Origin: Acidimicrobiia bacterium
Lineage (GTDB): Bacteria > Actinomycetota > Acidimicrobiia > Spongiisociales > UBA5794
Length of the DNA stretch: 64,000 nucleotides
Direction: 5' to 3'
NCBI GenBank assembly: GCA_030066755.1
Contig: JASJAX010000001.1
Coordinates: 14,341 to 78,340, forward strand
In this document: piece by piece, positions 5 through 59,482 of the stretch
Layout: the number at the start of each line of letters is the position of its first letter
Numbering within the stretch: the first letter of the stretch is position 1
Translations under genes and position numbers: made by a program
The notes under the pieces: generated by a model
The model's database searches: none
What the model was told of the DNA's origin: nothing
Seen by the model: the letters and a program-made list of their open reading frames with translations, nothing else

Positions 5-388
5 GTGCTCTACGCCGGCCCTGGTGTCGCCGGCGCCGAGGGCCAGGGCTTGTGTCCGGGCAACTCGATCGCCGCTCCGGGCTTCCAGAACATCTCGAAC
101 ACTCCGGTCGAGGCCGGATCCTGTGAAGGTTTCCCGACCGACGTCGCATCCGTCCAGGTGTGCAGCGGTGGCGTGTGGATCTACCGCACCCTGATTCCTT
201 CGGATCTGGAAGGCACGCTGTTTGCGAGCCTCGAATGGACGTCGGGCGACGGCACCGTCAAGGGTCTGACGAGTCAGCTCCCGACAACACCCGACCTTCC
301 GGAGATCGAATACGGGCTTCCCTCGTACTCCCTATGGGAGGGCTTCACCTCAGACGGCTCGACAACCATCACCTGCAGCGCGCCGTAG
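5..388 (+). CDS. C-terminal fragment of a hypothetical secreted protein; the 5' end lies outside the window
   Basis: ORF runs to the window edge. Gly/Ser/Thr-rich with a Cys pair. No recognisable family. Confidence 0.3.
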   Translation: MLYAGPGVAGAEGQGLCPGNSIAAPGFQNISNTPVEAGSCEGFPTDVASVQVCSGGVWIYRTLIPSDLEGTLFASLEWTSGDGTVKGLTSQLPTTPDLPEIEYGLPSYSLWEGFTSDGSTTITCSAP

Positions 389-417
389 GAGTAGTGAGTA
401 CCGAGTACTGAGTACCG
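389..417. repeat. heptanucleotide tandem array, about 4 units of GAGTA(C/G)N
   Basis: The sequence gagtagtgagtaccgagtactgagtacc lies between two convergent gene ends. Confidence 0.7.
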
Positions 418-488
418 ACACGTCGGTCGTTTGGTCCGAGGTCCTCGAGCAACCGCACTGCTTCGCAACCGGGGCTGACTCCCCAGTA

Positions 489-3104
489 TCAGAGATCTGG
501 ATCCGGCTGCGCAGCCTGTACGTCCTCGGGGACGGCCCCGGCCAACGCGATCTCGATCGCCTCGGGCAGGTCCAGGACACGACCTGGGGCGACCATTTCT
601 CCCATCCGCCCCTCACCGAAGCGCTCCTTCAGGTTCCCCTTGGCGTCGAAGGCCCCAGCTGTCCCCGGACCCCAACCGGCGCCGGCTCTCTCTCGCTGAG
701 CTTCGGCAGCGCCAACCAGCAGCGCGGCCAGGTCGATGTTGCCGGACTTCAGTTCGATGCTTGCGAGGTATTCGAGCCCCCATGTCTGGAGGAAGACGTC
801 ACTCAGCTTGACTCCTCGTTCCAGGCCGGTGCGTGCTAGACGACCGGCATCTTCGAGCCGGTCTTCCTCCAAGGCGGCACCCGCTTGGGCGTATATCGAC
901 TGCGTGGCCTGGATCTGGCGTCCGGCTTGCTCATAGAGGTCGGCGCTCCGTTCGAACTCCGCCGTCAATCCGGCGAACCCCTTCTCCCTGACCACGGCGA
1001 ACGCATCACCCGCCACGATGTCGGCAACCCCGCCCAGGTCACCCAGCTCGGCGTAGATCGCGCGAGCCTCGTCGAGCAGCGGCACAGCCTCGCTCGGCCG
1101 ATCGGCCACGATCAGGGACGTAGCCAGCCCATAGATGGCGTCCGCCGTCAAGGCGCGATCGCCCAGTGCCTGCGCCCGTTCCACGGCTTGTCGGTAGTCC
1201 TCAACCGCCAGCTGCGCTTCCTCTCGCCAGTAGTAGAGGGCAGCTCGAGCCATCAGTCCCTTGACCCGACCCACACTGTCGGCCTCAGCGGCGGGCAGTG
1301 CAAAGAATCGTTTCAGCCACATCTCGGCCTCCACCAGGTGACCCCGGCTTTGGTAGAAGCGCCAGATGTTGCCGAGGAGCTCCAATCCTCTGTCGGCGTC
1401 TTTGTCCGTGTGGAGCATCGTCAGCACTTCCCTGACGTTCCCGAACTCGTCGTCGAGATGGGACTGCCACCACTCGCCCCGGTCAGACTGAAGCCCCACA
1501 TAGGCCTCATCACCCAGACGGCAGTAGTAGTCCACAAACCGATTCCTGACCCCGTCGCCCTCCTCCGACTCGGCGAGAAGGTGGCGTCCGAAGCGTTGAA
1601 CCCCGTTCAGCATCCGGAACCTGCTCGACGAGCCTGGCTGGCGCAGGAGCATGGACTGATCTACGAGCTCGCCTATCGCGACGAGGGCGTCGGGCACGCC
1701 GTCGCCCCCAGCCACGGCTTCGGCCGCCTTCAGGCTCATGTCGGTGGCGAATACCGAAAGGCGACGGAACACGGTGCGGCCGGTCTCGTTCAACAGGTCA
1801 TAGCTCCATGACAGGGCATCGCTCAACGTCCGCTTCCGTTCCGGCGTGGCCCCTGGCGAGGTGTAGGAGATGCTGCCGGCTTCCATCCGTTCCAGCATCT
1901 CCGCCGGAGACAGCAGATTGACCCGGGCAGCGACCAGTTCGATGGCAAGCGGCAGACCGTCGAGACGGGCCACCAGCGCGACAACGTCCGCAGCATCCGC
2001 CGAGAAGGAAGGGTCCGCGGCGCGAGCACGTTCGTAGAACAGCCGAACGGCGGCAGGGTCTGGCGAACCATTCACGGGAAGTGTCGGCAATACGTAGCGC
2101 TGTTCACCTGCCAGCCGTAGCGGCCCCTGGCTGGTGACCAGGAAACGCGCCTGACCGCTGGCGCTCATCAGCCGACCGAGGTCGTCCGCTGCTTCGACCA
2201 CCTGCTCGAAGTTGTCGAGCAGGAGGAGGGCTTCGGAACCGGCGAGTCGCTCAGAGGTGGCCTCCACGGTGGCAGCGTCGATCTCCAAGGCATCAGCGAT
2301 GGACGGGATGACCAGCGCCGGTTCCGAGACCGCTGAGAGGTCGACGAAGGTGACTCCTCCCGGAAACCGGCCCGCAATGAGGTTCCCGACCGTCACTGCC
2401 AGACTGGTCTTGCCAACACCCCCAGGCCCGAGGATCGTGACGAGACGGTGCTGGTCGATCAACGCGGAGATCGTCTCGATATCCGCGTCGCGCCCGATGA
2501 TCGAAGCGACTCGAGTGGGCAGGTTGTTGGGGATCGAAGAAGTGGTGTTGAGCGGAGGGAACTCGGAAGGCAAACCCGAGAGGATCAGCTGGAAGACCTC
2601 TTCGTCGTTCTCGAGACCGCGGAGGGTGTGTCGCCCCAGCGATCGGTATTCGAACTCGGATCCGGAAAGCAGCCGAGCCGACTCGCTGGCCAACACCTGT
2701 CCCCCGTGCCCAGCCGCCATGATTCGGGCGGCCTTGTGGACTTCGAAGCCCACGTAGTCGCCGTCGGTCACGGTTGCCTCGCCGGTGTGGACCCCAACTC
2801 GGACGCTGATGTCTCCACCCTCAGGCCATTCCTTGGCGTACATACGCTGCTGGATCCCGCCGGCTGCCCTCACGGCGCCTGCCGCGCTCGGGAATGCGGC
2901 AAACACCCCGTCGCCTGTTGTATTGACTTCAACACCCCCCGAGCCTGCGACCTCGTCTCGGATCATCGAGAAGTGTTCGGCAACGAGCGCGGCATAGTCG
3001 GCACCGAACTTCTGGGCCAACGCGGTCGAGCCCTCGATATCGGTGAACACGAAAGTCACTGTTCCCAGGGGAAGTTCTTGCGCCATTGGTTCGTAGTCTG
3101 CCAT
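489..3104 (-). CDS. class III adenylate/guanylate cyclase fused to an AAA/NB-ARC ATPase and TPR repeats (large signal-transduction regulator; no C-terminal LuxR HTH visible)
   Basis: N-terminal FVFTDIEGSTAL and TTGDGVFAAF cyclase motifs. Walker A GPGGVGKTSLA. A long helical repeat C-terminal region. Start chosen at MADYEP (3104); the ORF extends to 3179. Confidence 0.75.
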   Translation of the reverse strand: MADYEPMAQELPLGTVTFVFTDIEGSTALAQKFGADYAALVAEHFSMIRDEVAGSGGVEVNTTGDGVFAAFPSAAGAVRAAGGIQQRMYAKEWPEGGDISVRVGVHTGEATVTDGDYVGFEVHKAARIMAAGHGGQVLASESARLLSGSEFEYRSLGRHTLRGLENDEEVFQLILSGLPSEFPPLNTTSSIPNNLPTRVASIIGRDADIETISALIDQHRLVTILGPGGVGKTSLAVTVGNLIAGRFPGGVTFVDLSAVSEPALVIPSIADALEIDAATVEATSERLAGSEALLLLDNFEQVVEAADDLGRLMSASGQARFLVTSQGPLRLAGEQRYVLPTLPVNGSPDPAAVRLFYERARAADPSFSADAADVVALVARLDGLPLAIELVAARVNLLSPAEMLERMEAGSISYTSPGATPERKRTLSDALSWSYDLLNETGRTVFRRLSVFATDMSLKAAEAVAGGDGVPDALVAIGELVDQSMLLRQPGSSSRFRMLNGVQRFGRHLLAESEEGDGVRNRFVDYYCRLGDEAYVGLQSDRGEWWQSHLDDEFGNVREVLTMLHTDKDADRGLELLGNIWRFYQSRGHLVEAEMWLKRFFALPAAEADSVGRVKGLMARAALYYWREEAQLAVEDYRQAVERAQALGDRALTADAIYGLATSLIVADRPSEAVPLLDEARAIYAELGDLGGVADIVAGDAFAVVREKGFAGLTAEFERSADLYEQAGRQIQATQSIYAQAGAALEEDRLEDAGRLARTGLERGVKLSDVFLQTWGLEYLASIELKSGNIDLAALLVGAAEAQRERAGAGWGPGTAGAFDAKGNLKERFGEGRMGEMVAPGRVLDLPEAIEIALAGAVPEDVQAAQPDPDL

Positions 3105-3219: not shown

Positions 3220-3254
3220 TACTCGGTACTCAGTACTCGCTACTCAGTACTCAA
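3220..3254. repeat. heptanucleotide tandem array, 5 units of TACTC(G/A)N
   Basis: tactcgg tactcag tactcgc tactcag tactcaa. Lies between the cyclase-regulator start and the tRNA-Ala terminator. Confidence 0.75.
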
Positions 3255-8553: not shown

Positions 8554-8962
8554 CCGCGCTCTGAGGTCGAGACCTGCAAATCAATCCTTCTCAACACCGG
8601 CTCGACGCGCCACAATGGGGCGCGGCGAACTCGAGGAGTGGGAGTTCCGCGTGGTGCGTTTCGGGCGCCTAGCCCAAAACCGAGGGGGAATGACCTCTGT
8701 TTTGAGCTGCCCTCATCGAGTTCGCATCGACCGAGTTCGCCAGGTCCCCTCCCCGGTTGGCTGATCGCAAGTCCCCCACCATTCCCCCTGCTTGCGTGAG
8801 GCTCCCTTCCCTCTTCGGAGGGAGGGGCCGGGGAGGGTTCGCGTGTGAGGCCGCGCGGCGGCCAGTCGCCAGTCGAGACCTGGAGGATCGCAGGCGTTCG
8901 ACTCGTCCTCACCGAAGGGCAGACCACTTCCTTCCCGGGATCGGGTTCGGTACGTTCGTGGC

Positions 8963-9490: not shown

Positions 9491-9553
9491 CGACTGACGA
9501 CTGGCGACTGGCGACTGGCGACTGGCGACTGGCGACTGGCGACTGGCGACTGG
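9491..9553. repeat. heptanucleotide tandem array, 9 units of CGACTG(A/G)
   Basis: cgactga then cgactgg x8. Ends 24 nt upstream of the uppP ATG, in a 95-bp intergenic gap. Confidence 0.85.
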
Positions 9554-9576
9554 CGAAAGCCCTAACCTCAGCCGCC

Positions 9577-10735: not shown

Positions 10736-10818
10736 GTCGCCAAGATCGGCCGCCCACGGACCTCGCTTGAGCGCCAGCGACGCTCGACCTGGAACATGCG
10801 ACACGAGACTTGGAGCTC

Positions 10819-10850
10819 GCTACCTGGGACTTGGGACTTGAGACCTGGGA
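10819..10850. repeat. heptanucleotide tandem array, about 4 units of AC(C/T)TGGG
   Basis: acctggg acttggg acttgag acctggg. Confidence 0.7.
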
Positions 10851-10857
10851 CGCTCCC

Positions 10858-13824: not shown

Positions 13825-14679
13825 ATGGGCATCGAACGGGTTGGGATCGTCGGCGGCGGTCAGATGGGCGCCGGTATCGCCGAGGTATGCATCAAGGCCG
13901 GTGTCGACGTGTTCGTCCACGAGATCAACGACGACTTGGCGGCCGCAGCGCGGTCGAGGGTCGAGAAATCCCTCGGACGAGCGGTGGAGAAGGGGAAGCT
14001 CGACGAGACGGGCCGCAACGAGGCGTTGTCCTTGCTGCGGACCGGCAGTGACCTCGACGCCATGGCCGACCGTGATCTCGTCGTCGAGGCTGTGATCGAG
14101 GATGAGGGCATCAAGAAGGCCCTCTTCGAAGACCTCGACCGTATCGTCGAATCAACGAGCGCAATCCTGGCGTCGAACACTTCGTCGATTCCGATCACAC
14201 GAATTGGCCAAGCGACGTCACGACCGGAAGCCGTCGTCGGGATGCACTTCTTCAACCCGGCACCAGTGATGCCCCTCGTCGAGATCGTGCGGAGCCCGGT
14301 GAGCAGTGACGACACCGTGGAGCGTGCGGCGTCGTTCGCTGCGGACCGGCTTGGCAAGACCGTGGTGCACGCCAAGGATCGGGCCGGCTTCATCGTCAAC
14401 ATGCTCCTGTGTCCGTACATCATCGACGCGATCCGGATGTACGAGTCGGGCTTCGCCACCAAGGAGGACATCGACGCCGGAATGGTGAACGGCGCCGGCT
14501 ATCCCATGGGACCGCTGACCCTGAGCGACCTGATTGGCAATGACACGATGCTCGCCGTAGCCGAGTCACTCTTCGAGGAGTTCCGCGAGGCCCGCTACGC
14601 CCCGCCGCCACTGCTCAAGCGCATGGTGGAGGCGGGCCTGCTCGGCAGGAAGACCGGCCAGGGGTTCTACTCGTATTGA
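13825..14679 (+). CDS. 3-hydroxyacyl-CoA / 3-hydroxybutyryl-CoA dehydrogenase
   Basis: GIVGGGQMGAGIA Rossmann motif, NTSSI, and the C-terminal 3HCDH domain. GGAGG upstream. Confidence 0.85.
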   Translation: MGIERVGIVGGGQMGAGIAEVCIKAGVDVFVHEINDDLAAAARSRVEKSLGRAVEKGKLDETGRNEALSLLRTGSDLDAMADRDLVVEAVIEDEGIKKALFEDLDRIVESTSAILASNTSSIPITRIGQATSRPEAVVGMHFFNPAPVMPLVEIVRSPVSSDDTVERAASFAADRLGKTVVHAKDRAGFIVNMLLCPYIIDAIRMYESGFATKEDIDAGMVNGAGYPMGPLTLSDLIGNDTMLAVAESLFEEFREARYAPPPLLKRMVEAGLLGRKTGQGFYSY

Positions 14680-14704
14680 GTACTGAGAACTGAGTACTGA
14701 GACT
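14675..14704. repeat. heptanucleotide tandem array, 4 units of TGAG(T/A)AC
   Basis: tgagtac tgagaac tgagtac tgagact. Starts at the stop codon of the upstream gene. Confidence 0.7.
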
Positions 14705-16721: not shown

Positions 16722-16893
16722 GAAGGTCCTGGGTCGGGTTCTCTCCGTGCGAACGCACGAGGGCACCGAAGTATGCCGGGCACGGAGACGTGTACCAAGT
16801 TCTGCAGTGTGGCCGACCCAGGCGCCTCCAGCCGCCGGCACCCAGCCTCCAGTGTTGGACACTCGCTCCCGAACGCGAGTGCCCGCACTACAG

Positions 16894-16935
16894 GCTGGTG
16901 GCTGGTGGCTGGTGGCTGGTGGCTGGTGGCTGGCC
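16894..16935. repeat. heptanucleotide tandem array, about 6 units of GCTGGTG
   Basis: gctggtg x5 then gctggcc. Lies in the divergent promoter region between the thioredoxin gene and an SDR gene, 38 nt before the SDR ATG. Confidence 0.8.
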
Positions 16936-25761: not shown

Positions 25762-26726
25762 CATACCGACAAGCCGTCGCACGGGGCATCGCCCAGGAGA
25801 TGGACCGCGATCCGACCGTGTACTTCATCGGTGAGGACGTGGCCGCGGCAGGTGGCGTCTTCAAGACCACGGAGGGACTCCAGGATCGGTTCGGTCCGGA
25901 ACGGGTTCGCGACACTCCGATCTCCGAGGAGGCGATCACCGGTGCCGTGATGGGGGCCGCGATGAACGGGCTCCGTCCGATCGCCGAGATCATGTTCTCG
26001 GACTTCTTTGCCACGTGCTGGGACATCGTCGCGAACCAGATCGCCAAGGCCCGATACATGACGGACGGTCAGATCACCTTGCCGCTCGTGATCCGTGCGG
26101 CCAACGGCGGCGGCGCACGTTTCGGTGCGCAGCACTCGCAGGCGATGGAGAACTGGGCGATGGCGATCCCGGGCCTGAAGGTGGTCGCACCGTCGAACGC
26201 CCACGACGTCGTCGGATTGCTTGCGGCGTCGGTGCGCGACGACGATCCGGTCGTCTTCCTGGAGCAGAAGTCGCTCTACGCATCGAGGCAGGAAGTCCCG
26301 GAAGGGGAGATCGTCGGGGAACTCGGCAAGGCCGCCGTCGTGCGTGAGGGCGCTGACATCACCGTCGTGGCGCTCGCCGCCATGGTGCCACGGGCGCTGG
26401 AAGCCGCCGAGACGTTGGCCGGTGAGGGCATCGACGTCGAAGTCGTCGATCTGCGCAGCCTCGTCCCTCTCGATGTGACCACGGTGCTGAACTCGGTCGT
26501 CAAGACCTCGCGGATGGTCACGGTCGAGGAGAACCCCCGGCTGTGTGGGTGGGGTGCGGAAGTCACGTCGATCGTGACCGAAGAGGCCTTCTACGACCTC
26601 GACGCGCCGACGCTGCGGATCACCACGCCGCACATCCCCCTGCCGTCCGCCGATACGCTGGAGGATCTCGCCATGCCGTCCGCCGAGACCATTGCGTCCG
26701 AGCTTCGGCGCGTGGGCAATGGCTGA
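25749..26726 (+). CDS. 2-oxoacid dehydrogenase E1 component, beta subunit
   Basis: GTG start with GGAGG at -7. AELTYRQAVARGIAQEMDRDPTVYFIGEDV is the classic E1-beta N-terminus. Overlaps the E1-alpha stop. Confidence 0.85.
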   Translation: MAELTYRQAVARGIAQEMDRDPTVYFIGEDVAAAGGVFKTTEGLQDRFGPERVRDTPISEEAITGAVMGAAMNGLRPIAEIMFSDFFATCWDIVANQIAKARYMTDGQITLPLVIRAANGGGARFGAQHSQAMENWAMAIPGLKVVAPSNAHDVVGLLAASVRDDDPVVFLEQKSLYASRQEVPEGEIVGELGKAAVVREGADITVVALAAMVPRALEAAETLAGEGIDVEVVDLRSLVPLDVTTVLNSVVKTSRMVTVEENPRLCGWGAEVTSIVTEEAFYDLDAPTLRITTPHIPLPSADTLEDLAMPSAETIASELRRVGNG

Positions 26727-29842: not shown

Positions 29843-30115
29843 GTGGTGGCGATCGATCGCGGTGCAGTCGAGGCGGCGCTCGACGAGATCCGGCCCGCCT
29901 TACACAGCGATGGTGGGGACTTGATCCTCCATGACATCTCGGAGGACGGCATCGTGAGCATCGAGTTGCTCGGCGCCTGCGGAACCTGCCCGATCTCGAT
30001 CATCACCCTCACCGCCGGCATCGAGGTGATCGTCCGCGCCAGAGTCCCGGAGGTAGCCGGAGTGCTACCGCATGCGGCGACACACGAGGATGTATTGGGG
30101 CTGAGAGCGGAGTAG
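29843..30115 (+). CDS. NifU-like (Nfu-type) Fe-S cluster domain protein
   Basis: 90 aa. [10 protein letters not shown]...[11 protein letters not shown] is the Nfu C-terminal domain with a CxxC motif. Confidence 0.7.
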
Positions 30116-30244
30116 CGAGTATCCCCCTCCCTTCCAGGGAGGGGGTGGCCTCCACGCAGTGGAGGTCGGGGAGGGTGTCACCGGTGGTTGGAGTAGCGGT
30201 GAACCCCTGTCCGGACCGGGCAACTCCGTTCAACCGACACCGCT

Positions 30245-30312
30245 CCGAACCGCGGAAACCCTCCCCTGGCTGCTGGCGCAGCCTGTCCCCGCCCTACAAG
30301 GGCGGGGGATCC
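30245..30312. repeat. conserved two-hairpin intergenic element, copy A
   Basis: ccgaaccgcggaaaccctcccctg, then GGCTGC-tggc-GCAGCC, then ctgt, then CCCCGCCC-tacaa-GGGCGGGG-gatcc. About 90% identical to the copy at 45270-45336. Followed by a heptamer array. Confidence 0.75.
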
Positions 30313-30318
30313 GCCTAG

Positions 30319-30353
30319 GACCTGGGACTTGCGACCTGGGACCTGAGACTCGG
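30319..30353. repeat. heptanucleotide tandem array, 5 units of GAC(C/T)TGN
   Basis: gacctgg gacttgc gacctgg gacctga gactcgg. Confidence 0.75.
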
Positions 30354-30360
30354 CTCTCCG

Positions 30361-30741
30361 TCAGGAGCGCCGCGCCACCGCATCGATCTGCACCTTGGCG
30401 CCCTTCCACAGGAAGGCGACTCCGTAACTGCATCGCGCGGGGTACGGCTCGCGGAACCGCTCGGCGTAGATGCGATTCATGTCGTCGAGATCGTCTTCGT
30501 CGACGAACTGGATGCTGGTGTGCACGACCTGCTCGAGCGACGACCCAGCTTCCTCGAGGATCGCCTCGAGGTTGCTGATGGCCCGATGAAACTCGGGGTC
30601 GAAACCGCCGGGGACAAAGTCGCCCGATCCGGGGTCGCGGCCGATCTGTCCGGTCACCCAGACGTGATCGCCGTCGATGCGGACATGAGGGTACGGACCG
30701 CGCGGCTCCGGTGCTGATTCGGTCGTGATGGTTTCGCTCAT
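30361..30741 (-). CDS. RidA-family (YjgF/TdcF) reactive-intermediate deaminase
   Basis: 126 aa. PYPHVRIDGDHVWVTGQIG...PARCSYGVAFLWKGAKVQID is the RidA signature. Confidence 0.85.
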   Translation of the reverse strand: MSETITTESAPEPRGPYPHVRIDGDHVWVTGQIGRDPGSGDFVPGGFDPEFHRAISNLEAILEEAGSSLEQVVHTSIQFVDEDDLDDMNRIYAERFREPYPARCSYGVAFLWKGAKVQIDAVARRS

Positions 30742-36132: not shown

Positions 36133-36206
36133 GTAGCGAGTAGCGAGACGAGTCAGCTCTTGGGACCGGGTGTCTCCGGACTCAGTACTCGGTACTCAGT
36201 ACTGCG
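36133..36206. repeat. two adjacent heptanucleotide arrays (GTAGCGA x2-3; ACTC(A/G)GT x4)
   Basis: gtagcgagtagcgagacgagt ... actcagtactcggtactcagtactgcgg. Confidence 0.7.
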
Positions 36207-37212: not shown

Positions 37213-37310
37213 CAAGTAGCCAGTAGCCAGTAGCCAGTAGCCAGACCCTGGGGCTCCAGGCTTGAGACCTGAGACCTGAGACCTGAGACTTGAGACTTGA
37301 GGCCTGACCT
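37213..37310. repeat. long heptanucleotide array of about 14 units with maintained 7-bp register (CCAGTAG x4 drifting to (C/T)TGAGAC x6)
   Basis: caagtag ccagtag x3 ccagacc ctggggc tccaggc ttgagac ctgagac x3 ttgagac ttgaggc ctgacct. Confidence 0.85.
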
Positions 37311-37939: not shown

Positions 37940-37980
37940 TCGACCGACGACTGACGACTGACGACTGACGACTGACGACA
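37940..37980. repeat. heptanucleotide tandem array, 5-6 units of CGACTGA
   Basis: cgactga x4 flanked by gaccga and cgacaga. About 65 nt upstream of the P-type ATPase ATG. Same unit family as the array upstream of uppP. Confidence 0.85.
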
Positions 37981-40713: not shown

Positions 40714-41769
40714 TCAGGTCGATGCCGTGACCCGGTAGTCACCCATGTCGCTCACCCACTCGAGGTGGACGAGCCCGCGTGTGTCGGCTGCTCGCACGAA
40801 CTGCAGGAAGCCGGTGTACCCGAATCGTTTCTCGGAGAAGTTCGACTGGCGCTTGCGCATTTCGTTCTTCAACCCGGAGAGCGCTGGTGGGCCATCCTTG
40901 CCCTGGATCTCCGCCACGGTGTCGGCGAGCAGGGCAAATGCATCGGCCTGGACGCTGCCTTCCTCGGTGAACTCGATGACGGGATCGCCCCGCGACCCCT
41001 CGTCATCGGTGAGGTGCAGTACGTTGCGCTCTGCGAGGTGACGGAGGAGCTCGCCGAACGCTCGGAATCCGTAATCGGCCTCGTTGAATGTCGGATCCTT
41101 GCGAAGGAGCGCCCTCTTGAGCATCGAGGACCGCACCGCCGACCCCGAGGACCGTTGGAGTCCGGCGAGCGTCCCCGTGACCAGGACGGCGAGCTGATCG
41201 ATATCGCCGCCACCGTTCCCCACCTGCTGCGGCGCCGGCTTGTCCGCACCGTTGCTCGGCTTCGCCTTCGGCTTCTGACTGGCTTTGCGTCGGGGGATTT
41301 CAACCCCCTCGAGCCGCTCGTAGAAGAGGAACTCATCGCACGCCGGCGGGAGAAGTGCAGAGGTCGATGCCTTCATCCCGACACCGATGACTCGCTTGTT
41401 CAACTCGCGGAGCTTGTGCACGAGCGGCGTGAAGTCCGAGTCGCCGGTGCAGATCACGAATGTGGTGACGTAGTCCCGCTCAAATGCGAGCTCGATCGCA
41501 TCCACTGCCATCTTGATGTCGGCCGCGTTCTTGCGTACCAATCCCCGACGTTGCGGAATCTCGATCATCTCGACATGGTTCTCCACCAGATTCCGACGAT
41601 CGTCGTCGAACGCCGTCCAATCGGCGTACGCCCGCCGAACTACCACACGACCACGCTCGGCCAGCGCGTCGGCGATGGGTTTGAAGTCCATGTCGATGCC
41701 GAGATCATCTCTCGCACCGATCGCCAGGTTCTCGTAGTCGATGAAGAGTCCGATCCGTTCTTCTTCCAT
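40714..41769 (-). CDS. NYN-domain (LabA-like) protein with OST-HTH/LOTUS domain(s)
   Basis: N-terminal NYN fold (IGLFIDYENL...FVICTGDSDFTPLV) plus C-terminal helical OST-HTH-like repeats. The start could instead be at 41826. Confidence 0.75.
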   Translation of the reverse strand: MEEERIGLFIDYENLAIGARDDLGIDMDFKPIADALAERGRVVVRRAYADWTAFDDDRRNLVENHVEMIEIPQRRGLVRKNAADIKMAVDAIELAFERDYVTTFVICTGDSDFTPLVHKLRELNKRVIGVGMKASTSALLPPACDEFLFYERLEGVEIPRRKASQKPKAKPSNGADKPAPQQVGNGGGDIDQLAVLVTGTLAGLQRSSGSAVRSSMLKRALLRKDPTFNEADYGFRAFGELLRHLAERNVLHLTDDEGSRGDPVIEFTEEGSVQADAFALLADTVAEIQGKDGPPALSGLKNEMRKRQSNFSEKRFGYTGFLQFVRAADTRGLVHLEWVSDMGDYRVTAST

Positions 41770-41916
41770 GAGAGGGAGGGTAGCTGGGAGCGGGGAGATG
41801 GCTTCGCGAGCTCCCAGCGGATCCATAGCCACAGAGTGCTGCCATGGCCGGTGGCGGCCGTGCTGCGCACCGGAGTACTGAGCACTGTCAGGGAGTACGG
41901 ACAATCCCGGCTCGTG

Positions 41917-42467: not shown

Positions 42468-42500
42468 TCTCTGTACTGAGTACTCAGTACTCAGTACTCC
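42468..42500. repeat. heptanucleotide tandem array (T(C/G)AGTAC x4) with a conserved flank
   Basis: gcgtctctgtac tgagtac tcagtac tcagtac tcc. Both flanks match the array at 59448-59482. Confidence 0.8.
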
Positions 42501-44344: not shown

Positions 44345-45133
44345 TCAGGGGCGTTTCGCCACCCAAACGGTCCAATCGAGAATCTCACGGTCCCGATCGT
44401 GGTCCCGCTTCCACTGCCGCTGCTGCTCGAGATAGTCGGCGGCCTTCGGGCCGGGATTCCGTTCAGCCCACGTCTCGGCGGATTCCATGATCCGCTGCTG
44501 ATACCCGTCCCATCCGGAACTGCCGGCATCGATTCGCTCGACTACCGAAAGGCCGAGACCCTCGAGAATCCTCTCCTGATCGTTCGCCGTCAGCACGGTG
44601 CCGTAGGTCTCAGCGATCAACGCTGCGTTGGCGTCGCTGCGAAGCCGCAGATCGCCGATGGCCAGGCGGCCACCCGGACCCGCACGGTCAACCTGGGCGC
44701 GAGCCGTTCCAGCGAAACCATGCCAGATCCACGAAGCCCCCAGACACGTCACGATGTCGAACCGCTCGTTCTTGTCGAGATCGTGTGCATCGCCGAGCCG
44801 CCACGACAGACGGCCCGAAGCCGAGCGTTCGGCCGCTGACTCGATCGACCGGACCAACACCCACGGTGACAGATCGACGCCAACGCCCCGGATGTCGGCG
44901 CGCTCGGCACCGCGAACCAGGAGCTCCCCATGACCGCAGGCGATGTCGAGCCAGGTGTCATCCGCCCGTGGGGTCAACGCGTCGAGCACGACGTCGAGGT
45001 CGGCGCCGGTCATGGGGTTGCAGATCCGCATGCCATGATGCAACGCCTCGAACACCTCGAAACGCTCCCACGCCCCGTCCACATCCGTCCCCGGGAGCAC
45101 GGTGATCTCTGGAGGAAGATGAGGCCAGGCCAT
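44345..45133 (-). CDS. class I SAM-dependent methyltransferase
   Basis: [11 protein letters not shown] (motif I) ... FDIVTCLGA. Confidence 0.75.
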
Positions 45134-45269
45134 AGCGCGAAGCCTAGAAGCCGCTCCCGTTCAGGAGTGGTGGCCTCTGCAAAGGAGAGGTCGGGTTGAG
45201 TGTCGACAGCTCATCGCGATCACCGTGGTGCCCGTTTCGAAGGCTGCCGCATCGTCGAACCTGATCGGA

Positions 45270-45336
45270 CCGAACCGTGGAAACCCTCCCCTGCCTGCTA
45301 CGCAGGCTGTCCCCGCCCTACAAGGGCGGGGGATCC
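45270..45336. repeat. conserved two-hairpin intergenic element, copy B
   Basis: ccgaaccgtggaaaccctcccctg, then GCCTGC-tac-GCAGGC, then tgt, then CCCCGCCC-tacaa-GGGCGGGG-gatcc. The first stem has a compensatory G:C to C:G swap relative to copy A. Followed by a heptamer array. Confidence 0.75.
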
Positions 45337-45380
45337 TGAGACCTGGGACCTGAGACGTGCGACCGGGGACCTGAGACGCG
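45335..45380. repeat. heptanucleotide tandem array, about 6 units of CTG(A/G)GAC
   Basis: ctgagac ctgggac ctgagac gtgcgac cggggac ctgagac. Confidence 0.75.
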
Positions 45381-45438
45381 AAACAACGAAGGGCGGCCGT
45401 GCGGCCGCCCTTCGTCAGTCCCTACCAGGGATTCCTCA

Positions 45439-46386
45439 TCACGCTTTCGTGTGCACGAACTCGAAGTACTTCTTGTTGCCGAAGGCGTCCTTGACCTTCA
45501 CCGAGAAGACCTTGCCCTTTGGTGCCTCCTCGAAGTACACCTTGACCTCCCACTCACCTTCTCCGTTGACCTCGGCCGAGCCTGATCCGTACTCGGACGA
45601 GATCGTCACGACGGTGCCCGGCTTGGCCGTTCCCCAGAAGACGTCGTACGGGGGGTCCTCGGCGCACGATCCGTAGACCTGGTGGGCGGTGAACTCCCAT
45701 TCCTTCGGGTCGTCCTTCGGCGGTGGCGGCGGGTCGTAGTAGACGACGACTGATGCGGTTGCCTGGTTGCCGGCGACATCCGTTGCCGTGAACGTGGCAC
45801 GGTTGGCGCCCTCGCTCAGGACCAGCTTGATCGCCCAATGCCCGTCGGCGTCGACATCTGCCTCCCAGCGGCCGGCGGCGACCGTCGCACCCGGTTCGGT
45901 GGTGCCCTCGAACCAGATCGTCTTCACGTCGAACCGGTCACCGTCCTTGGGTGACGTGATCGCGATCGGGGGAGGCTCGACATCAACGGGCTCCGTCGTC
46001 GGCGGTGGCGTCGGTTCGGGCTCTGGATCCCCGGCAGGCTCCTCCGGCAGCGGATCGACTGCTTCGGGATCCGGCTCGGTCGGGTCGATCGGCAGATTCA
46101 CATCGGGTGGCGGCACGACATCGGGCAGCTCCGTCTCGATGTCCGGCGTCTCGTCAACGATGGGATCGGGAATCGTGTCGGCAACATCCGGGGTCGGCGT
46201 TGGCCTCAGCATTGCGCCCACGACGATGAAGGCGACCACGGCGGCGAAGGCCAGGGCTCCCTGGGCCACTTGCGCCCAGCGGGCTCGACGGATCACGACG
46301 GGGAACGGCGTGGCCGGCGTGTATTCGTTGGTGCTCACATGGATGGACTCGGCGGCGCGACGCGCCCGATCGTCGAGGGTCTTCAT
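45439..46386 (-). CDS. anti-sigma-factor-like membrane protein with a Pro-rich linker and an extracytoplasmic beta-sandwich domain
   Basis: ATGA overlap with the ECF sigma gene. Single TM (ALAFAAVVAFIVVGAML). PxP-rich spacer. C-terminal Ig-like domain. Confidence 0.6.
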   Translation of the reverse strand: MKTLDDRARRAAESIHVSTNEYTPATPFPVVIRRARWAQVAQGALAFAAVVAFIVVGAMLRPTPTPDVADTIPDPIVDETPDIETELPDVVPPPDVNLPIDPTEPDPEAVDPLPEEPAGDPEPEPTPPPTTEPVDVEPPPIAITSPKDGDRFDVKTIWFEGTTEPGATVAAGRWEADVDADGHWAIKLVLSEGANRATFTATDVAGNQATASVVVYYDPPPPPKDDPKEWEFTAHQVYGSCAEDPPYDVFWGTAKPGTVVTISSEYGSGSAEVNGEGEWEVKVYFEEAPKGKVFSVKVKDAFGNKKYFEFVHTKA

Positions 46387-48696: not shown

Positions 48697-48769
48697 GCCC
48701 CAGTAGCTCAGGGGATAGAGCACCGGTTTCCTAAACCGGGTGTCGGAGGTTCGAATCCTCCCTGGGGCA
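48697..48769 (+). tRNA. tRNA-Arg: tRNA-Arg (anticodon CCU)
   Basis: Read by hand. Acceptor stem GCCCCAG/CUGGGGC. D stem GCUC/GAGC. Anticodon stem CCGGU/ACCGG with loop UUCCUAA. T arm GGAGG-UUCGAAU-CCUCC. Discriminator A. No CCA encoded. Confidence 0.85.
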
Positions 48770-49186
48770 CTCGGCGCCTGCCGGCTCCGCCGGCGGCGCT
48801 CCGCTCGCGGGCTCGCCGAGATCCGATGGCTACTCGCCATCGGACTCTCACCTCTCCCTGGGATCTCACTCCACCGGGGTCCTAGCTGCGAGACCCCGAC
48901 CGATCAGAACAGCGCCGCCGGGCGCAACCATGGGCAGCCCGCGACCCAAGAGCGAGGGTTCGAATCCTCCCTGGGGCACTCGGCGCCTGCCGGCTCCGCC
49001 GGCGGCGCCTCGTTCGCGTGAGTTCCGAGATCCGATGGCTGCTCGCCATCAGACTCTCACCTCTCCCTGGGATCTCACTCCACCGGGGTCCTAGCTGCGA
49101 GACCCCGATCTTCTAGAACAGCGCCGCCGGGCGCAACCATGGGCAGCCCGCGACCCAAGAGCGAGGGTTCGAATCCTTCGTGCCAA
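48744..49186 (+). repeat. 209-bp tandem direct repeat (2 full copies plus a truncated third) whose units begin with the tRNA-Arg 3' end
   Basis: The period is exactly 209 bp: ttcgaatcc recurs at 48750, 48959 and 49168. Copies are about 93% identical. Each unit starts with gagggttcgaatcctccctggggcac. A degenerate unit tail recurs at 49375-49457 after an unrelated insert of about 190 bp. Confidence 0.85.
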
Positions 49187-49521
49187 ACGGAACGAACCGC
49201 TGCTGCGCCGACCTCACACGACCAACGAACGGAACACCCACTCCTCTGGCCGCCTCCGGCGAGCGCGACCGCCGCGAATAGTCCCCCCGAAGGGGGGAAG
49301 GTACCGCCGGCCGAACAGGCCGGGGGTAGGGGGGATCAGCACTCGTCGACCACCGCACACAACCCCTCGGGATGCTGGCTGCGAGACCCCGACCGATCAG
49401 AACAACGCCGCCGGACGCAACCATGGGCAGCCCGCAACCCAAGAACGAGAGGCTCGGTGAGTACTGCAGCCGAAGGCTGCACGGCCTGCCGAGTAGCGCG
49501 TGGGCTCGGTAGGTTGGTGCC

Positions 49522-56900: not shown

Positions 56901-57197
56901 CTCGACTACGTCGCGGTGGTCTCGGCGAGCCGCATCGGGAGCGAAGCCGACTCGTGGGCACCGTGGTGGGCACGCGCCGTCGGCCTGGAGTTCGTGCAGG
57001 CGTACCTGTCGGCCATGGAGGATTCGCCGGCTCTGCCGGACGATGCCGCCGACATCGACTCGCTCCTCACCGCGTACACGCTCACCCGTTCGCTCAGCGA
57101 GCTGCATTGGGAAGCCGAGGTTCGCCCAGACTGGATCGACGTTCCGATCGCGGGAATCCGCAGGATCATCAGCTCGCAGGACGGCGAGAACGACTGA
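53922..57197 (+). CDS. treS: trehalose synthase fused to maltokinase (TreS-Mak/Pep2)
   Basis: N-terminal GH13 TreS ([11 protein letters not shown]...[13 protein letters not shown]...[11 protein letters not shown]) plus a C-terminal kinase-like maltokinase domain. 1091 aa. Confidence 0.9.
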
Positions 57198-59316: not shown

Positions 59317-59351
59317 TCGAGTAGCGAGTAACGAGTAGCGAGTAGCGAGAC
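59317..59351. repeat. heptanucleotide tandem array (CGAGTA(G/A) x4)
   Basis: cgagtag cgagtaa cgagtag cgagtag cgagacc. Immediately upstream of otsA. Confidence 0.75.
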
Positions 59352-59447: not shown

Positions 59448-59482
59448 TCTCTGTACTCAGTACTCGGTACTCAGTACTCCGA
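59448..59482. repeat. heptanucleotide tandem array (TC(A/G)GTAC x4) with a conserved flank
   Basis: gccgtctctgtac tcagtac tcggtac tcagtac tcc. Same flanks as the array at 42468-42500. Confidence 0.8.

What the first reader, a model, noticed from the sequence alone, without database searches (positions are those of the whole stretch)
30245..30312. Conserved ~68-nt two-hairpin element present twice, with a compensatory base-pair substitution: candidate structured RNA or REP-like element
Copy A at 30245-30312 and copy B at 45270-45336 are about 90% identical. Each has a 5' box ccgaaccg(c/t)ggaaaccctcccctg, then a first hairpin, then a second hairpin CCCCGCCC-tacaa-GGGCGGGG that is identical in both copies, then gatcc and a heptamer array. 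In the first hairpin the second base pair is G:C in copy A (GGCTGC...GCAGCC) and C:G in copy B (GCCTGC...GCAGGC). This is a compensatory double change that preserves pairing, which argues for selection on structure. Copy A sits between convergent operon ends (Nfu and RidA). Copy B sits downstream of the anti-sigma gene. Either could act as a terminator lacking a U-tract, a small RNA, or a protein-binding REP-type element.
Basis: seen in the sequence. Interest (0 to 1): 0.6.

Follow-up and report, generated by a model that had tools for sequence, protein, structure and literature searches.

The report
Right arm of palindromic intergenic repeat
The two look-alike 68-base hairpin segments are real, but each is only the right-hand end of a roughly 194-base palindromic repeat scattered between housekeeping genes of an uncultured Acidimicrobiia bacterium; this is a new family of an ordinary kind of small mobile DNA (MITE/REPIN-like), not a dedicated RNA gene.

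Summary
Copies A (30245-30312) and B (45270-45336) are 63/68 identical, with two hairpins and a G:C to C:G swap in the first.

Each copy is only the right arm of a larger unit of about 194 nt (A 30119-30312, B 45143-45336). The left arm of about 62 nt is a diverged reverse complement of the right arm. Each arm carries a terminal C-run/G-run hairpin, a second hairpin and a GGGGAGGGT box. The centre varies between copies.

An exact 26-mer scan of metagenome contigs found the unit at 15 different loci, next to housekeeping genes such as ilvD, sigma-70, gyrA and a class II aminoacyl-tRNA synthetase gene. Some copies have lost the left arm.

At the syntenic NifU-RidA site the unit is absent in close relatives. 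The spacer is 92 nt where RidA is 95% identical and 13 nt where it is 80% identical. The unit is therefore an insertion.

Hairpins keep pairing through compensatory changes at both ends. There is no Rfam match, no U-tract terminator and no promoter.

Best reading: a non-autonomous MITE/REPIN-like mobile repeat, a new family in an Acidimicrobiia MAG. The enzyme that moves it and any role for its RNA are unknown. Interest is low to moderate.

The parts
30119..30312 (+). Copy A, whole palindromic unit (about 194 nt) between the NifU stop and the RidA stop
   Evidence: Alignment of full-length copies. The right-arm covariance model hits 30187-30312 (+) at 109 bits and 30119-30238 (-) at 37 bits, E 1e-10. 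The unit is absent from the syntenic spacer in relatives.
30119..30181 (+). Copy A left arm (TIR-L): terminal hairpin 30123-30145 (CCCCCTCCCT/AGGGAGGGGG), second hairpin 30147-30167 (GGCCTCCAC/GTGGAGGTC), G-box GGGGAGGGTGTC 30168-30179
   Evidence: Fold, left/right arm alignments, box search, pair counts.
30182..30248 (+). Copy A variable centre. It contains the semi-conserved motif (C)ACGGTGGnnCCC(GTT), here GCGGTGAACCCC
   Evidence: Alignments A2 and A3. This region is only about 50% conserved between copies.
30249..30312 (+). Copy A right arm (TIR-R), essentially the finding: box ACCGCGGAAACCCTCCCC, hairpin 1 at 30268-30283, hairpin 2 at 30286-30308, terminal GATCC
45143..45336 (+). Copy B, whole unit, between the methyltransferase start and the array/hairpin that follow the sigma/anti-sigma-like operon
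   Evidence: Alignments. Model hit 45213-45336 at 125.6 bits. The same copy in strain contig L038 also gives a weak reverse-strand hit on its left half, 13.7 bits, E 4e-4.
45146..45206 (+). Copy B left arm, degenerate: hairpin 45150-45171 (GCCGCTCC/GGAGTGGT, with G.U pairs), hairpin 45172-45192 (GGCCTCT/AGAGGTC), decayed box GGGTTGAGTGTC
45270..45336 (+). Copy B right arm (the finding's copy B): hairpin 1 at 45293-45307 (C:G variant), hairpin 2 at 45310-45332
30314..30349 (+). Period-7 array (GACCTGG type) abutting copy A. It is neighbouring sequence, not part of the unit. A short GAGTAGC array (30108-30121) abuts the other end.
   Evidence: TRF. Other copies are followed by different arrays or none. 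The empty site in the 95% relative consists of such arrays.
45335..45377 (+). Period-7 array (GACCTGR type) abutting copy B. It is neighbouring sequence. One unit more is present in strain contig L035.

Best explanation
The 68-nt two-hairpin segment is the right terminal inverted repeat of a non-coding palindromic repeat unit of about 194 bp. The unit has spread to many intergenic sites in one lineage of uncultured Acidimicrobiia. It is a non-autonomous mobile element of the MITE/REPIN class.

Shown here:
- The unit has two arms of about 62 nt that are reverse complements of each other. Each arm has a terminal C-run/G-run hairpin, a second hairpin and a GGGGAGGGT box. A variable centre lies between the arms.
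- The unit sits at 15 or more unrelated loci beside housekeeping genes.
- It is missing from the orthologous NifU-RidA spacer of close relatives, so it arrived by insertion.
- The hairpins are kept by compensatory changes.
- Truncated right-arm-only copies exist.

Inferred:
- An enzyme encoded elsewhere in the genome recognises the two ends and moves the unit.
- Pairing inside each arm is conserved, which a double-strand-binding transposase would not require. No target duplication longer than 2 bp is seen. All wobble pairs fall on one strand. For these reasons I lean about 55:45 towards recognition of the ends as folded single-stranded hairpins (REPIN/RAYT-like or IS200/IS605-like chemistry). 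The alternative is a classical cut-and-paste DDE transposase with an AT duplication.
- When transcribed, the hairpins probably affect 3' ends of neighbouring mRNAs as a side effect, not as the reason the element exists.
For: - Inverted-repeat architecture: a covariance model built only from right arms hits the left halves of the same units on the opposite strand. Examples are window 30119-30238 at 37 bits, E 1e-10, and hits in L011, L021, L015, L009, L022, L017 and L008. Direct left-versus-reverse-complemented-right alignments score 16-26 in 9 of the 11 copies (the decayed winB and the contig-truncated L012 score only 11 and 10), against shuffle means of about 9-10 with sd 2.
- Dispersal: an exact 26-mer scan of metagenome contigs gave 17 contigs. 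With the window these are 15 distinct loci by flank clustering. Flanking genes are IlvD, a primary-type sigma-70, a class II aminoacyl-tRNA synthetase, the GyrA C-terminus, a Cys/Met PLP enzyme, HIT and others.
- Insertion: the syntenic RidA-NifU-OCD locus has a 92-nt spacer made only of short tandem arrays in L032/L033, where RidA is 95% identical. The spacer is 13 nt in L029/L030, where RidA is 80% identical. A 94% relative has a 69-nt gap, known from the gene map only. About 98 kb of sequence from relatives has no model hit.
- Assembly breaks: several assemblies break in or next to the unit (L003, L006, L007, L034), as expected for a multi-copy repeat.
- Structure: hairpin 1 pair 2 is G:C in 13 copies and C:G in 3, and is never broken. 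For the left-arm hairpins, 89% of cells are paired against 37-57% in slid controls. Six pairs have double changes, for example C:G 5 / G:C 4 / U:A 1. None of 500 shuffles reaches the observed covariation score. The terminal hairpin has T:A on the left arm and G:C on the right arm in all copies.
- Decay products: six loci keep only the centre plus the right arm.
- No coding capacity: the centre is variable and there is no conserved ORF.
- No Rfam family, promoter or U-tract terminator matches.
Against: - No transposase, RAYT or longer parent element with the same ends was found. The searches available could not cover the whole genome. Only neighbouring genes were checked.
- No unambiguous target-site duplication was seen. 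The only consistent flank is the dinucleotide AT on both sides (6 of 7 full copies). AT is its own reverse complement, so it may simply belong to the inverted repeat GGATCC.
- The empty site in the 95% relative is not a clean excision footprint, because the surrounding tandem arrays differ.
- Hairpin 2 looks invariant only because the scan demanded it. One strain variant has a loop change.
- Two orthologous but diverged loci (L014/L016) both carry the unit, so some copies are old and stable.
- The right-arm side abuts a gene 3' end in 10 of 11 scorable loci. This bias could reflect selection for an RNA-level role rather than neutral insertion.
Confidence: 0.75

Rival explanations
1. A host-selected structured RNA module, such as a 3'-UTR stabiliser, a U-less terminator or insulator between convergent genes, or a small RNA. 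On this reading the family exists because the folded RNA is useful, and the repeats spread or persist for that reason.
For: - All four hairpins are thermodynamically strong. The whole unit A folds at -141.8 kcal/mol with z -5.3.
- Pairing is kept by compensatory changes.
- All G.U wobbles in the left arm lie on one strand, including a G.U conserved in 8 of 11 copies. Strand-specific wobble is what an RNA or a single-stranded DNA would show.
- The right-arm side lies next to a gene 3' end in 10 of 11 loci, often within 5-20 nt of the stop codon.
- In copy A there is no other hairpin between the convergent NifU and RidA genes.
Against: - The unit is not conserved at the orthologous site in relatives with 80-95% identical flanking proteins.
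- There is no Rfam match, no sigma-70-type promoter and no hairpin plus T-run on either strand.
- The strand favoured by the wobble pairs (+) is not the strand most often co-directional with an upstream gene (-).
- Copy B follows a separate GC hairpin (about 45390-45413) that already sits after the operon.
- The proposed long-range helix GGGGAGGGT/ACCCTCCCC is not maintained. In 6 of 11 full copies ACCCGCCCC faces an unchanged GGGGAGGGT.
- The two-fold symmetry of the unit and the truncated copies are typical of mobile DNA, not of an RNA gene family.
Confidence: 0.17
2. A site-specific recombination site of the integron attC type. Such a site is an imperfect inverted repeat with a variable centre, recombined as a folded single strand at the 3' end of gene cassettes.
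For: There is a superficial resemblance: conserved inverted ends, a variable centre, a location just after stop codons, and structure conserved more than sequence.
Against: - The copies are 15 kb apart among core, syntenic housekeeping genes, not in a cassette array.
- The ends are GGATCCCCC.../...GGGGGATCC and lack the RYYYAAC / GTTRRRY core sites (definition from my own knowledge; sequences).
- No integrase gene was seen near any copy.
Confidence: 0.02
3. Chance similarity, or a single local duplication of a terminator-like hairpin.
For: Only two copies are visible in the window itself.
Against: Shuffles expect 0.00 occurrences. There are 15 loci with unrelated flanks. Homology extends about 194 nt.
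Confidence: 0.01

Closest known systems
REPINs (REP doublets forming hairpins) and BIMEs of Pseudomonas and enterobacteria, mobilised by RAYT tyrosine (HUH) transposases (Bertels & Rainey, PMC3116915, PMC3337134)
   Same: [quoted passage not shown]
- An extragenic location.
- Single-arm remnants that look like decay products.
- Left and right palindromes that are consistently different variants, like the Y/Z REPs of BIMEs (my own knowledge).
- No obvious target duplication.
- Hairpin pairing conserved in single-strand form.
- The palindromic cores listed for SBW25 (GGGGGCTTGCCCCC and similar) are of the same style as CCCCGCCC-TACAA-GGGCGGGG.
   Different: - The unit is about twice as long (about 194 nt against 89 nt for the GI REPIN).
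- Each arm has two hairpins plus a G-box rather than one palindrome of about 20 nt.
- There is no GTAG-like tetranucleotide.
- No RAYT gene could be looked for.
- The host is an actinobacterial-phylum lineage, whereas REPIN/RAYT systems have been described mainly in Proteobacteria (my own knowledge).
Bacterial MITEs with long terminal inverted repeats, such as Correia/CREE elements of Neisseria, ERIC/IRU, RUP and Nezha (my own knowledge, not re-read here)
   Same: - Non-coding and 100-300 bp.
- Terminal inverted repeats.
- Many intergenic copies.
- Presence/absence polymorphism between close relatives.
- Co-transcription with neighbours can create processing or termination sites.
   Different: - Typical MITEs show a clear target-site duplication (TA for Correia) and share their ends with a known IS family. 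Here only an ambiguous AT is seen and no parent IS is known.
- Conserved hairpins inside each arm, kept by compensatory change, are not a usual MITE feature.
Ends of IS200/IS605-family elements and their miniature derivatives (PATEs)
   Same: Sub-terminal hairpins recognised on one DNA strand, no target duplication and no need for perfect pairing. G.T mismatches are tolerated (my own knowledge; PMC6006769 abstract).
   Different: IS200/IS605 ends are not inverted repeats of one another. Here the two arms clearly are.

Membership tests
[quoted passage not shown] | Terminal inverted repeats | tested here: met
   The right-arm model hits the left arms on the opposite strand. Left-versus-reverse-complemented-right alignments score well above shuffles in most copies. 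Arm alignment A4.
[quoted passage not shown] | Small size, non-coding, multiple dispersed copies | tested here: met
   About 194 nt with a variable centre and no conserved ORF. 15 loci with unrelated flanks.
[quoted passage not shown] | Target-site duplication flanking each copy | tested here: inconclusive
   Only AT is shared on both sides (6 of 7 copies). AT is palindromic and may be part of GGATCC. No repeat of 3-9 bp was found at any offset.
[quoted passage not shown] | Presence/absence at orthologous sites (evidence of insertion) | tested here: met
   The spacer is 245 nt with the unit, against 92 nt (95% relative) and 13 nt (80% relative).
[quoted passage not shown] | A parent IS or transposase with the same ends | not testable with these tools
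No transposase was seen among the neighbours checked.
REP / REPIN | Two REP-like imperfect palindromes in inverted orientation with a spacer, located extragenically (definition: PMC3337134) | tested here: met
REP / REPIN | REP of about 20 nt with a conserved 5' tetranucleotide (GTAG type; my own knowledge, Nunvar 2010) | tested here: not met
   The arms are about 62 nt with two hairpins. The terminal palindrome is preceded by GGAT, not GTAG.
REP / REPIN | A cognate single-copy RAYT gene flanked by the repeats | not testable with these tools
   No genome-wide protein search restricted to this organism is possible. None was seen in the 64-kb window regions examined.
Any Rfam RNA family | A covariance-model match at or near the gathering score | tested here: not met
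   The window at gathering threshold gives only two tRNAs. Region 30050-30420 at E<=10 gives only chance-level hits of 13-17 bits.
Intrinsic (Rho-independent) terminator | A GC hairpin followed by a T/U-run | tested here: not met
   No terminator-like site on either strand at A or B. Hairpin 2 is followed by GATCC on the + strand and ACAGGC on the - strand.
Integron attC site | R''/R' core sites (RYYYAAC ... GTTRRRY), cassette arrays, IntI nearby (my own knowledge) | tested here: not met
   The ends are GGATCCCCC/GGGGGATCC. The copies are 15 kb apart among syntenic core genes.

The most novel reading that the evidence does not exclude
The unit, a second related family with the same hairpin-hairpin-G-box layout, and the fast-changing period-7 arrays that fill most intergenic regions of this genome together mark a single-strand, hairpin-recognising (HUH/RAYT-like or other) DNA-processing system not yet described in Acidimicrobiia or Actinomycetota. 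In this reading the arrays serve as landing pads or by-products. Alternatively, the units have been co-opted genome-wide as strand-specific RNA 3'-end modules.
Probability: 0.15. Interest if true: 0.55.

Novelty: new member of a known kind. Interest (0 to 1): 0.27.

Why it matters
- Annotation: these segments in Acidimicrobiia MAGs should be labelled as ends of a repeat family, not as candidate sRNAs or terminators. A single compensatory pair shared by a subfamily is weak evidence for an RNA gene.
- Assembly: the repeat explains contig breaks in several assemblies of this population.
- Strain typing: the unit gives a presence/absence marker between closely related strains.
- Open question: a mobilising enzyme has not been identified. 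A hairpin-ended, inverted-repeat element without a visible target duplication in an actinobacterial-phylum lineage would widen the known host range of REPIN-like replicators, if a RAYT-type enzyme were found.
- The ubiquitous variable heptamer arrays around the unit may be the more interesting feature of this genome.

Tried and rejected
- Rfam on the whole window and, permissively, on locus A gave nothing relevant.
- Two exact-pattern scans of the species-representative genome collection found nothing. The patterns were box plus gap plus TGTCCCC, and the 22-mer of hairpin 2. The carrier genomes are therefore not represented there, or their copies differ by a base. One strain variant with loop TCCAA shows how easily exact scans miss copies.
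- Two scans of viral contigs found nothing.
- Long-range helix GGGGAGGGT(left)/ACCCTCCCC(right): it is predicted in copy A but rejected as a conserved feature. It is disrupted by three mismatches in copy B, and in 6 of 11 full-length alignment rows (5 distinct loci; L009 and L012 are the same locus) T is replaced by G with no change opposite.
- The direct repeat ACGGTGGnnCCC in the centre and in the right box is explained by both being complementary to the inner part of the left arm. It is not evidence of a third partner.
- The apparent compensatory difference between L009 and L012 at the same locus is confined to the last 60 nt of a contig end. I treat it as an assembly artefact.
- Weak model hits at 57006-57109 and 25883-25951 lie in coding sequence and are chance.
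- No target-site duplication of 3-9 bp was found.
The gene overlaps an ECF sigma gene, so the label is reasonable.
- Literature searches for the accession prefixes and for MITEs in Acidimicrobiia found nothing.
- The look-up of a window-end protein to extend the contig leftwards failed. The rightward extension of about 5 kb held no further copy.

Full report
**Observation**

They share 63 identical positions in a 68-column alignment.

Each folds into the two predicted hairpins. Hairpin 1 is at 30268-30283 in A and 45293-45307 in B. Hairpin 2 is at 30286-30308 and 45310-45332. The fold z-scores are about -2.5 to -2.8. The second pair of hairpin 1 is G:C in A and C:G in B.

The hairpin-2 21-mer occurs twice in the window, against 0.00 expected from dinucleotide shuffles. 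GATCC and a period-7 array follow both copies.

**Gene context**

Copy A lies between the stop codons of a NifU-domain gene (29843-30115, +) and a RidA/L-PSP gene (30361-30741, -).

Copy B lies after a 315-aa protein with Ig-like domains (45439-46386, -). Copy B is also immediately upstream of a SAM-methyltransferase gene (44345-45133, -).

NCBI names for the exact proteins place the window in an 'Acidimicrobiia bacterium' MAG. The RidA accession is MDJ0959053.1 and the contig is 93 kb.

**The repeat is larger than reported**

Aligning the two intergenic regions shows a second conserved block about 100 nt upstream of each copy.

An exact scan of metagenome contigs with 26 nt of hairpin 2 returned 17 contigs. 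Together with the window these are 15 distinct loci by flank similarity. Aligning them shows the following:
- a conserved unit of about 194 nt;
- a 5' block, GGATCCCCCTCCC-TTTC-AGGGAGGGG, then TGGCCTCCAC-GAAG-GTGGAGGTC, then GGGGAGGGTsTC;
- a poorly conserved centre with a motif (C)ACGGTGGnnCCC(GTT);
- six loci that keep only the centre plus this 3' block.

**The unit is an inverted repeat**

I built a covariance model from 16 copies of the 3' block alone. It hits the 5' halves of the same units on the opposite strand. Window 30119-30238 (-) scores 37 bits with E 1e-10, and seven metagenome copies also hit. Copy B hits weakly in a strain contig.

Direct alignment of each left end with the reverse complement of its right end scores 16-26 in 9 of the 11 copies, against shuffle means of about 9-10 with sd about 2. 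The decayed copy B and the contig-truncated L012 score only 11 and 10.

A joint alignment of 10 left arms and 16 reverse-complemented right arms shows one common layout:
- GGATCCCCC-K-CCC, a loop, then GGG-M-GGGG;
- a second hairpin whose sequence differs between left and right arms but which is always a hairpin;
- GGGGAGGGT-n-TC-c-ACCG.

The finding is therefore the right terminal inverted repeat of a palindromic element. A is 30119-30312 and B is 45143-45336. The two whole units are only about 70% identical, because B's left arm and the centres have diverged.

**Structure is conserved at both ends**

- In hairpin 1 the second pair is G:C in 13 copies and C:G in 3 (B, L013, L022). It is never half-changed. 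The three share a similar loop, so this is probably one event inherited by a subfamily.
- In the left arm, 89% of pair cells are standard pairs, against 37-57% when partners are slid. Six pairs have changes on both sides, for example C:G 5 / G:C 4 / U:A 1. None of 500 shuffles reaches the observed covariation score.
- The terminal hairpin carries T:A on the left arm and G:C on the right arm in every copy.
- All wobble pairs in the left arm are G.U on the + strand, including one conserved in 8 of 11 copies. The + strand folds better than the - strand in all 11 left arms.
- Hairpin 2 is invariant only because the scan required it. One strain variant of copy B has loop TCCAA.
- A long-range helix between the two G/C boxes is predicted for copy A but is not maintained. 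In B it is disrupted by three mismatches, and in 6 of 11 full-length alignment rows (5 distinct loci) ACCCGCCCC faces an unchanged GGGGAGGGT.

**The unit is an insertion, not a conserved regulatory site**

I retrieved the syntenic locus (luciferase-like gene, RidA, then convergent NifU, OCD, DHDPS) from relatives.

| RidA identity to window | Locus | NifU-RidA spacer |
|---|---|---|
| window itself | window | 245 nt, with the unit |
| 95% | L032/L033 | 92 nt, short tandem arrays only; left flank GAGTAGC-AGTA still alignable |
| 94% | P0002 contig | 69 nt (gene map only, no DNA) |
| 84% | L028 | 239 nt, unrelated, no model hit |
| 80% | L029/L030 | 13 nt |

About 98 kb of sequence from relatives contains no copy. 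The window has two copies in 64 kb.

Contigs from several assemblies of the carrier population end in or beside the unit, as expected for a multi-copy repeat.

Copy B is present in two other strain contigs. The diverged orthologous pair L014/L016 both carry a copy, so some insertions are old.

**Context of the copies**

The neighbours are ordinary housekeeping genes: IlvD, a primary-type sigma-70, a class II aminoacyl-tRNA synthetase, the GyrA C-terminus, a Cys/Met PLP enzyme, HIT, rhomboid and methyltransferases. No transposase or integrase was seen near any copy or in the window regions examined.

Reading gene positions from GC3-supported ORFs gives two results:
- The right-arm side abuts a gene 3' end in 10 of 11 scorable loci. 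By my own binomial arithmetic the two-sided p is about 0.01.
- The left-arm side faces a gene end in 6 loci and a gene start in 5.

No locus lies between divergent genes, and four lie between convergent genes. This avoidance of promoter regions is typical of REP/MITE-type repeats. It also means that the - strand of the unit is the one most often read through from an upstream gene, which does not match the strand favoured by the wobble pairs. I leave this unexplained.

**Boundaries**

Outside the C-run and G-run, the only flank shared on both sides is AT (6 of 7 full copies). No direct repeat of 3-9 bp exists at any offset. AT is palindromic and sits inside the usual GGATCC, so it cannot be told apart from the inverted repeat. 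Where the outer bases deviate, left and right deviate independently, which fits the inverted-repeat reading better than a duplication.

**Mechanism**

The class is well supported: a non-autonomous, insertion-derived palindromic repeat. How it moves is inferred.

Three observations point to recognition of folded single-stranded ends, as proposed for REPINs/RAYTs and shown for IS200/IS605. These are the conserved pairing inside each arm, the one-strand wobble pattern and the lack of a visible duplication.

The long inverted repeats and the AT flanks would equally fit a classical MITE moved by a DDE transposase. I put these two at about 55:45.

RNA-level consequences, such as stabilising or ending neighbouring transcripts, are plausible by analogy with REP, ERIC and Correia elements (my own knowledge) but untested. 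There is no U-tract or promoter consensus. Copy B sits behind a separate GC hairpin that already follows the operon.

**Comparison with known families**

The REPIN definition is two REPs in inverted orientation, a spacer that differs in every copy, an extragenic location, and singlets as decaying remnants (PMC3337134). That definition matches. The size, the two-hairpin arms and the absence of a GTAG-type motif do not match. A RAYT gene could not be sought.

The MITE criteria of inverted repeats, small size, non-coding sequence, dispersal and polymorphism are met. The target duplication is inconclusive and the parent IS is unknown.

No Rfam family matches. No paper in the searchable library mentions MITEs in Acidimicrobiia.

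I therefore file it as a new family of a known kind.

**Verdict**

Noticed in passing
window 389-418, 3220-3253, 8861-8875, 9491-9556, 10781-10854, 14677-14702, 16893-16933, 30108-30121, 30314-30349, 36133-36203, 37215-37307, 37941-37979, 42469-42499, 45335-45377, 59318-59349, 59449-59479; also L008, L010, L011, L014, L018, L019, L020: Period-7 tandem arrays of 2-9 units sit in many intergenic regions. The units differ from array to array but are related (GAGTACY, GAGTAGC, GACCTGR, GACTGRC, GGCTGGT). They occur on either strand and often lie next to stop codons or GC hairpins. They change between strains: L035 has one extra unit. They make up the whole 92-nt NifU-RidA spacer of the 95% relative. 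In L014 an array replaces the sequence that L016 has at the same place. The only literature parallel found is the intergenic TAACTGA heptamer repeats of Beggiatoaceae and cyanobacteria (PMC4679880). This may deserve its own analysis.
   Followed up: partly
window 49280-49349 (+); L015 about 125-185 (-); L017 about 830-890 (-); L012 1330-1354: A second repeat family has the same layout as one arm of the element. It consists of AGTCCCCCC-nnn-GGGGGGAAGGTACCG, then a second hairpin with a different sequence in each copy (CCGGCC/GGCCGG, CCGCCC/GGGCGG, CTCGAC/GTCGAG), then GGGGTAGGGG and GCACTCGTCGA. In L015 and L017 it lies 35-60 nt beyond the right arm of the first family. This suggests a superfamily of modular hairpin repeats that cluster.
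   Followed up: partly
window 48697-49449: The 3' end of the tRNA gene (48697-48769) starts a 209-nt unit that is repeated in tandem (48748-48956, 48957-49165, 93% identical). A third partial tRNA-3'-end copy is at about 49165, and a further 82-nt piece of the unit is at 49368-49449. This looks like repeated attachment-site duplications or a tandem duplication. No integrase is nearby; the neighbours are a GNAT acetyltransferase and hydrolases.
   Followed up: partly
window 8740-8846: A degenerate fragment resembles a left arm without its second hairpin: CTCCCTTCCCTC-TTCG-GAGGGAGGGG, then CCGGGGAGGGTT. A complementary GGTCCCCTCCCCGG lies about 75 nt upstream and a GCCAGTC array follows. It is possibly an old decayed copy or a third family.
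   Followed up: no
L013 and L020: Two contigs share the same left flank and the same element copy but continue differently straight after GGGGGA. This is either recombination between copies of the repeat in different strains or a chimeric assembly at the repeat.
   Followed up: no
L011 3082-3145 (- strand orientation): The first 20 nt of a left arm (GGATCCCCCTCCCTTTCAGG) are duplicated about 45 nt upstream of a full-length copy. This is a partial or nested insertion.
   Followed up: no
window 40717-41916 (-): A protein with a NYN ribonuclease domain plus an OST-HTH/LOTUS RNA-binding domain is encoded about 3 kb from copy B. No link to the repeats was tested.
   Followed up: no
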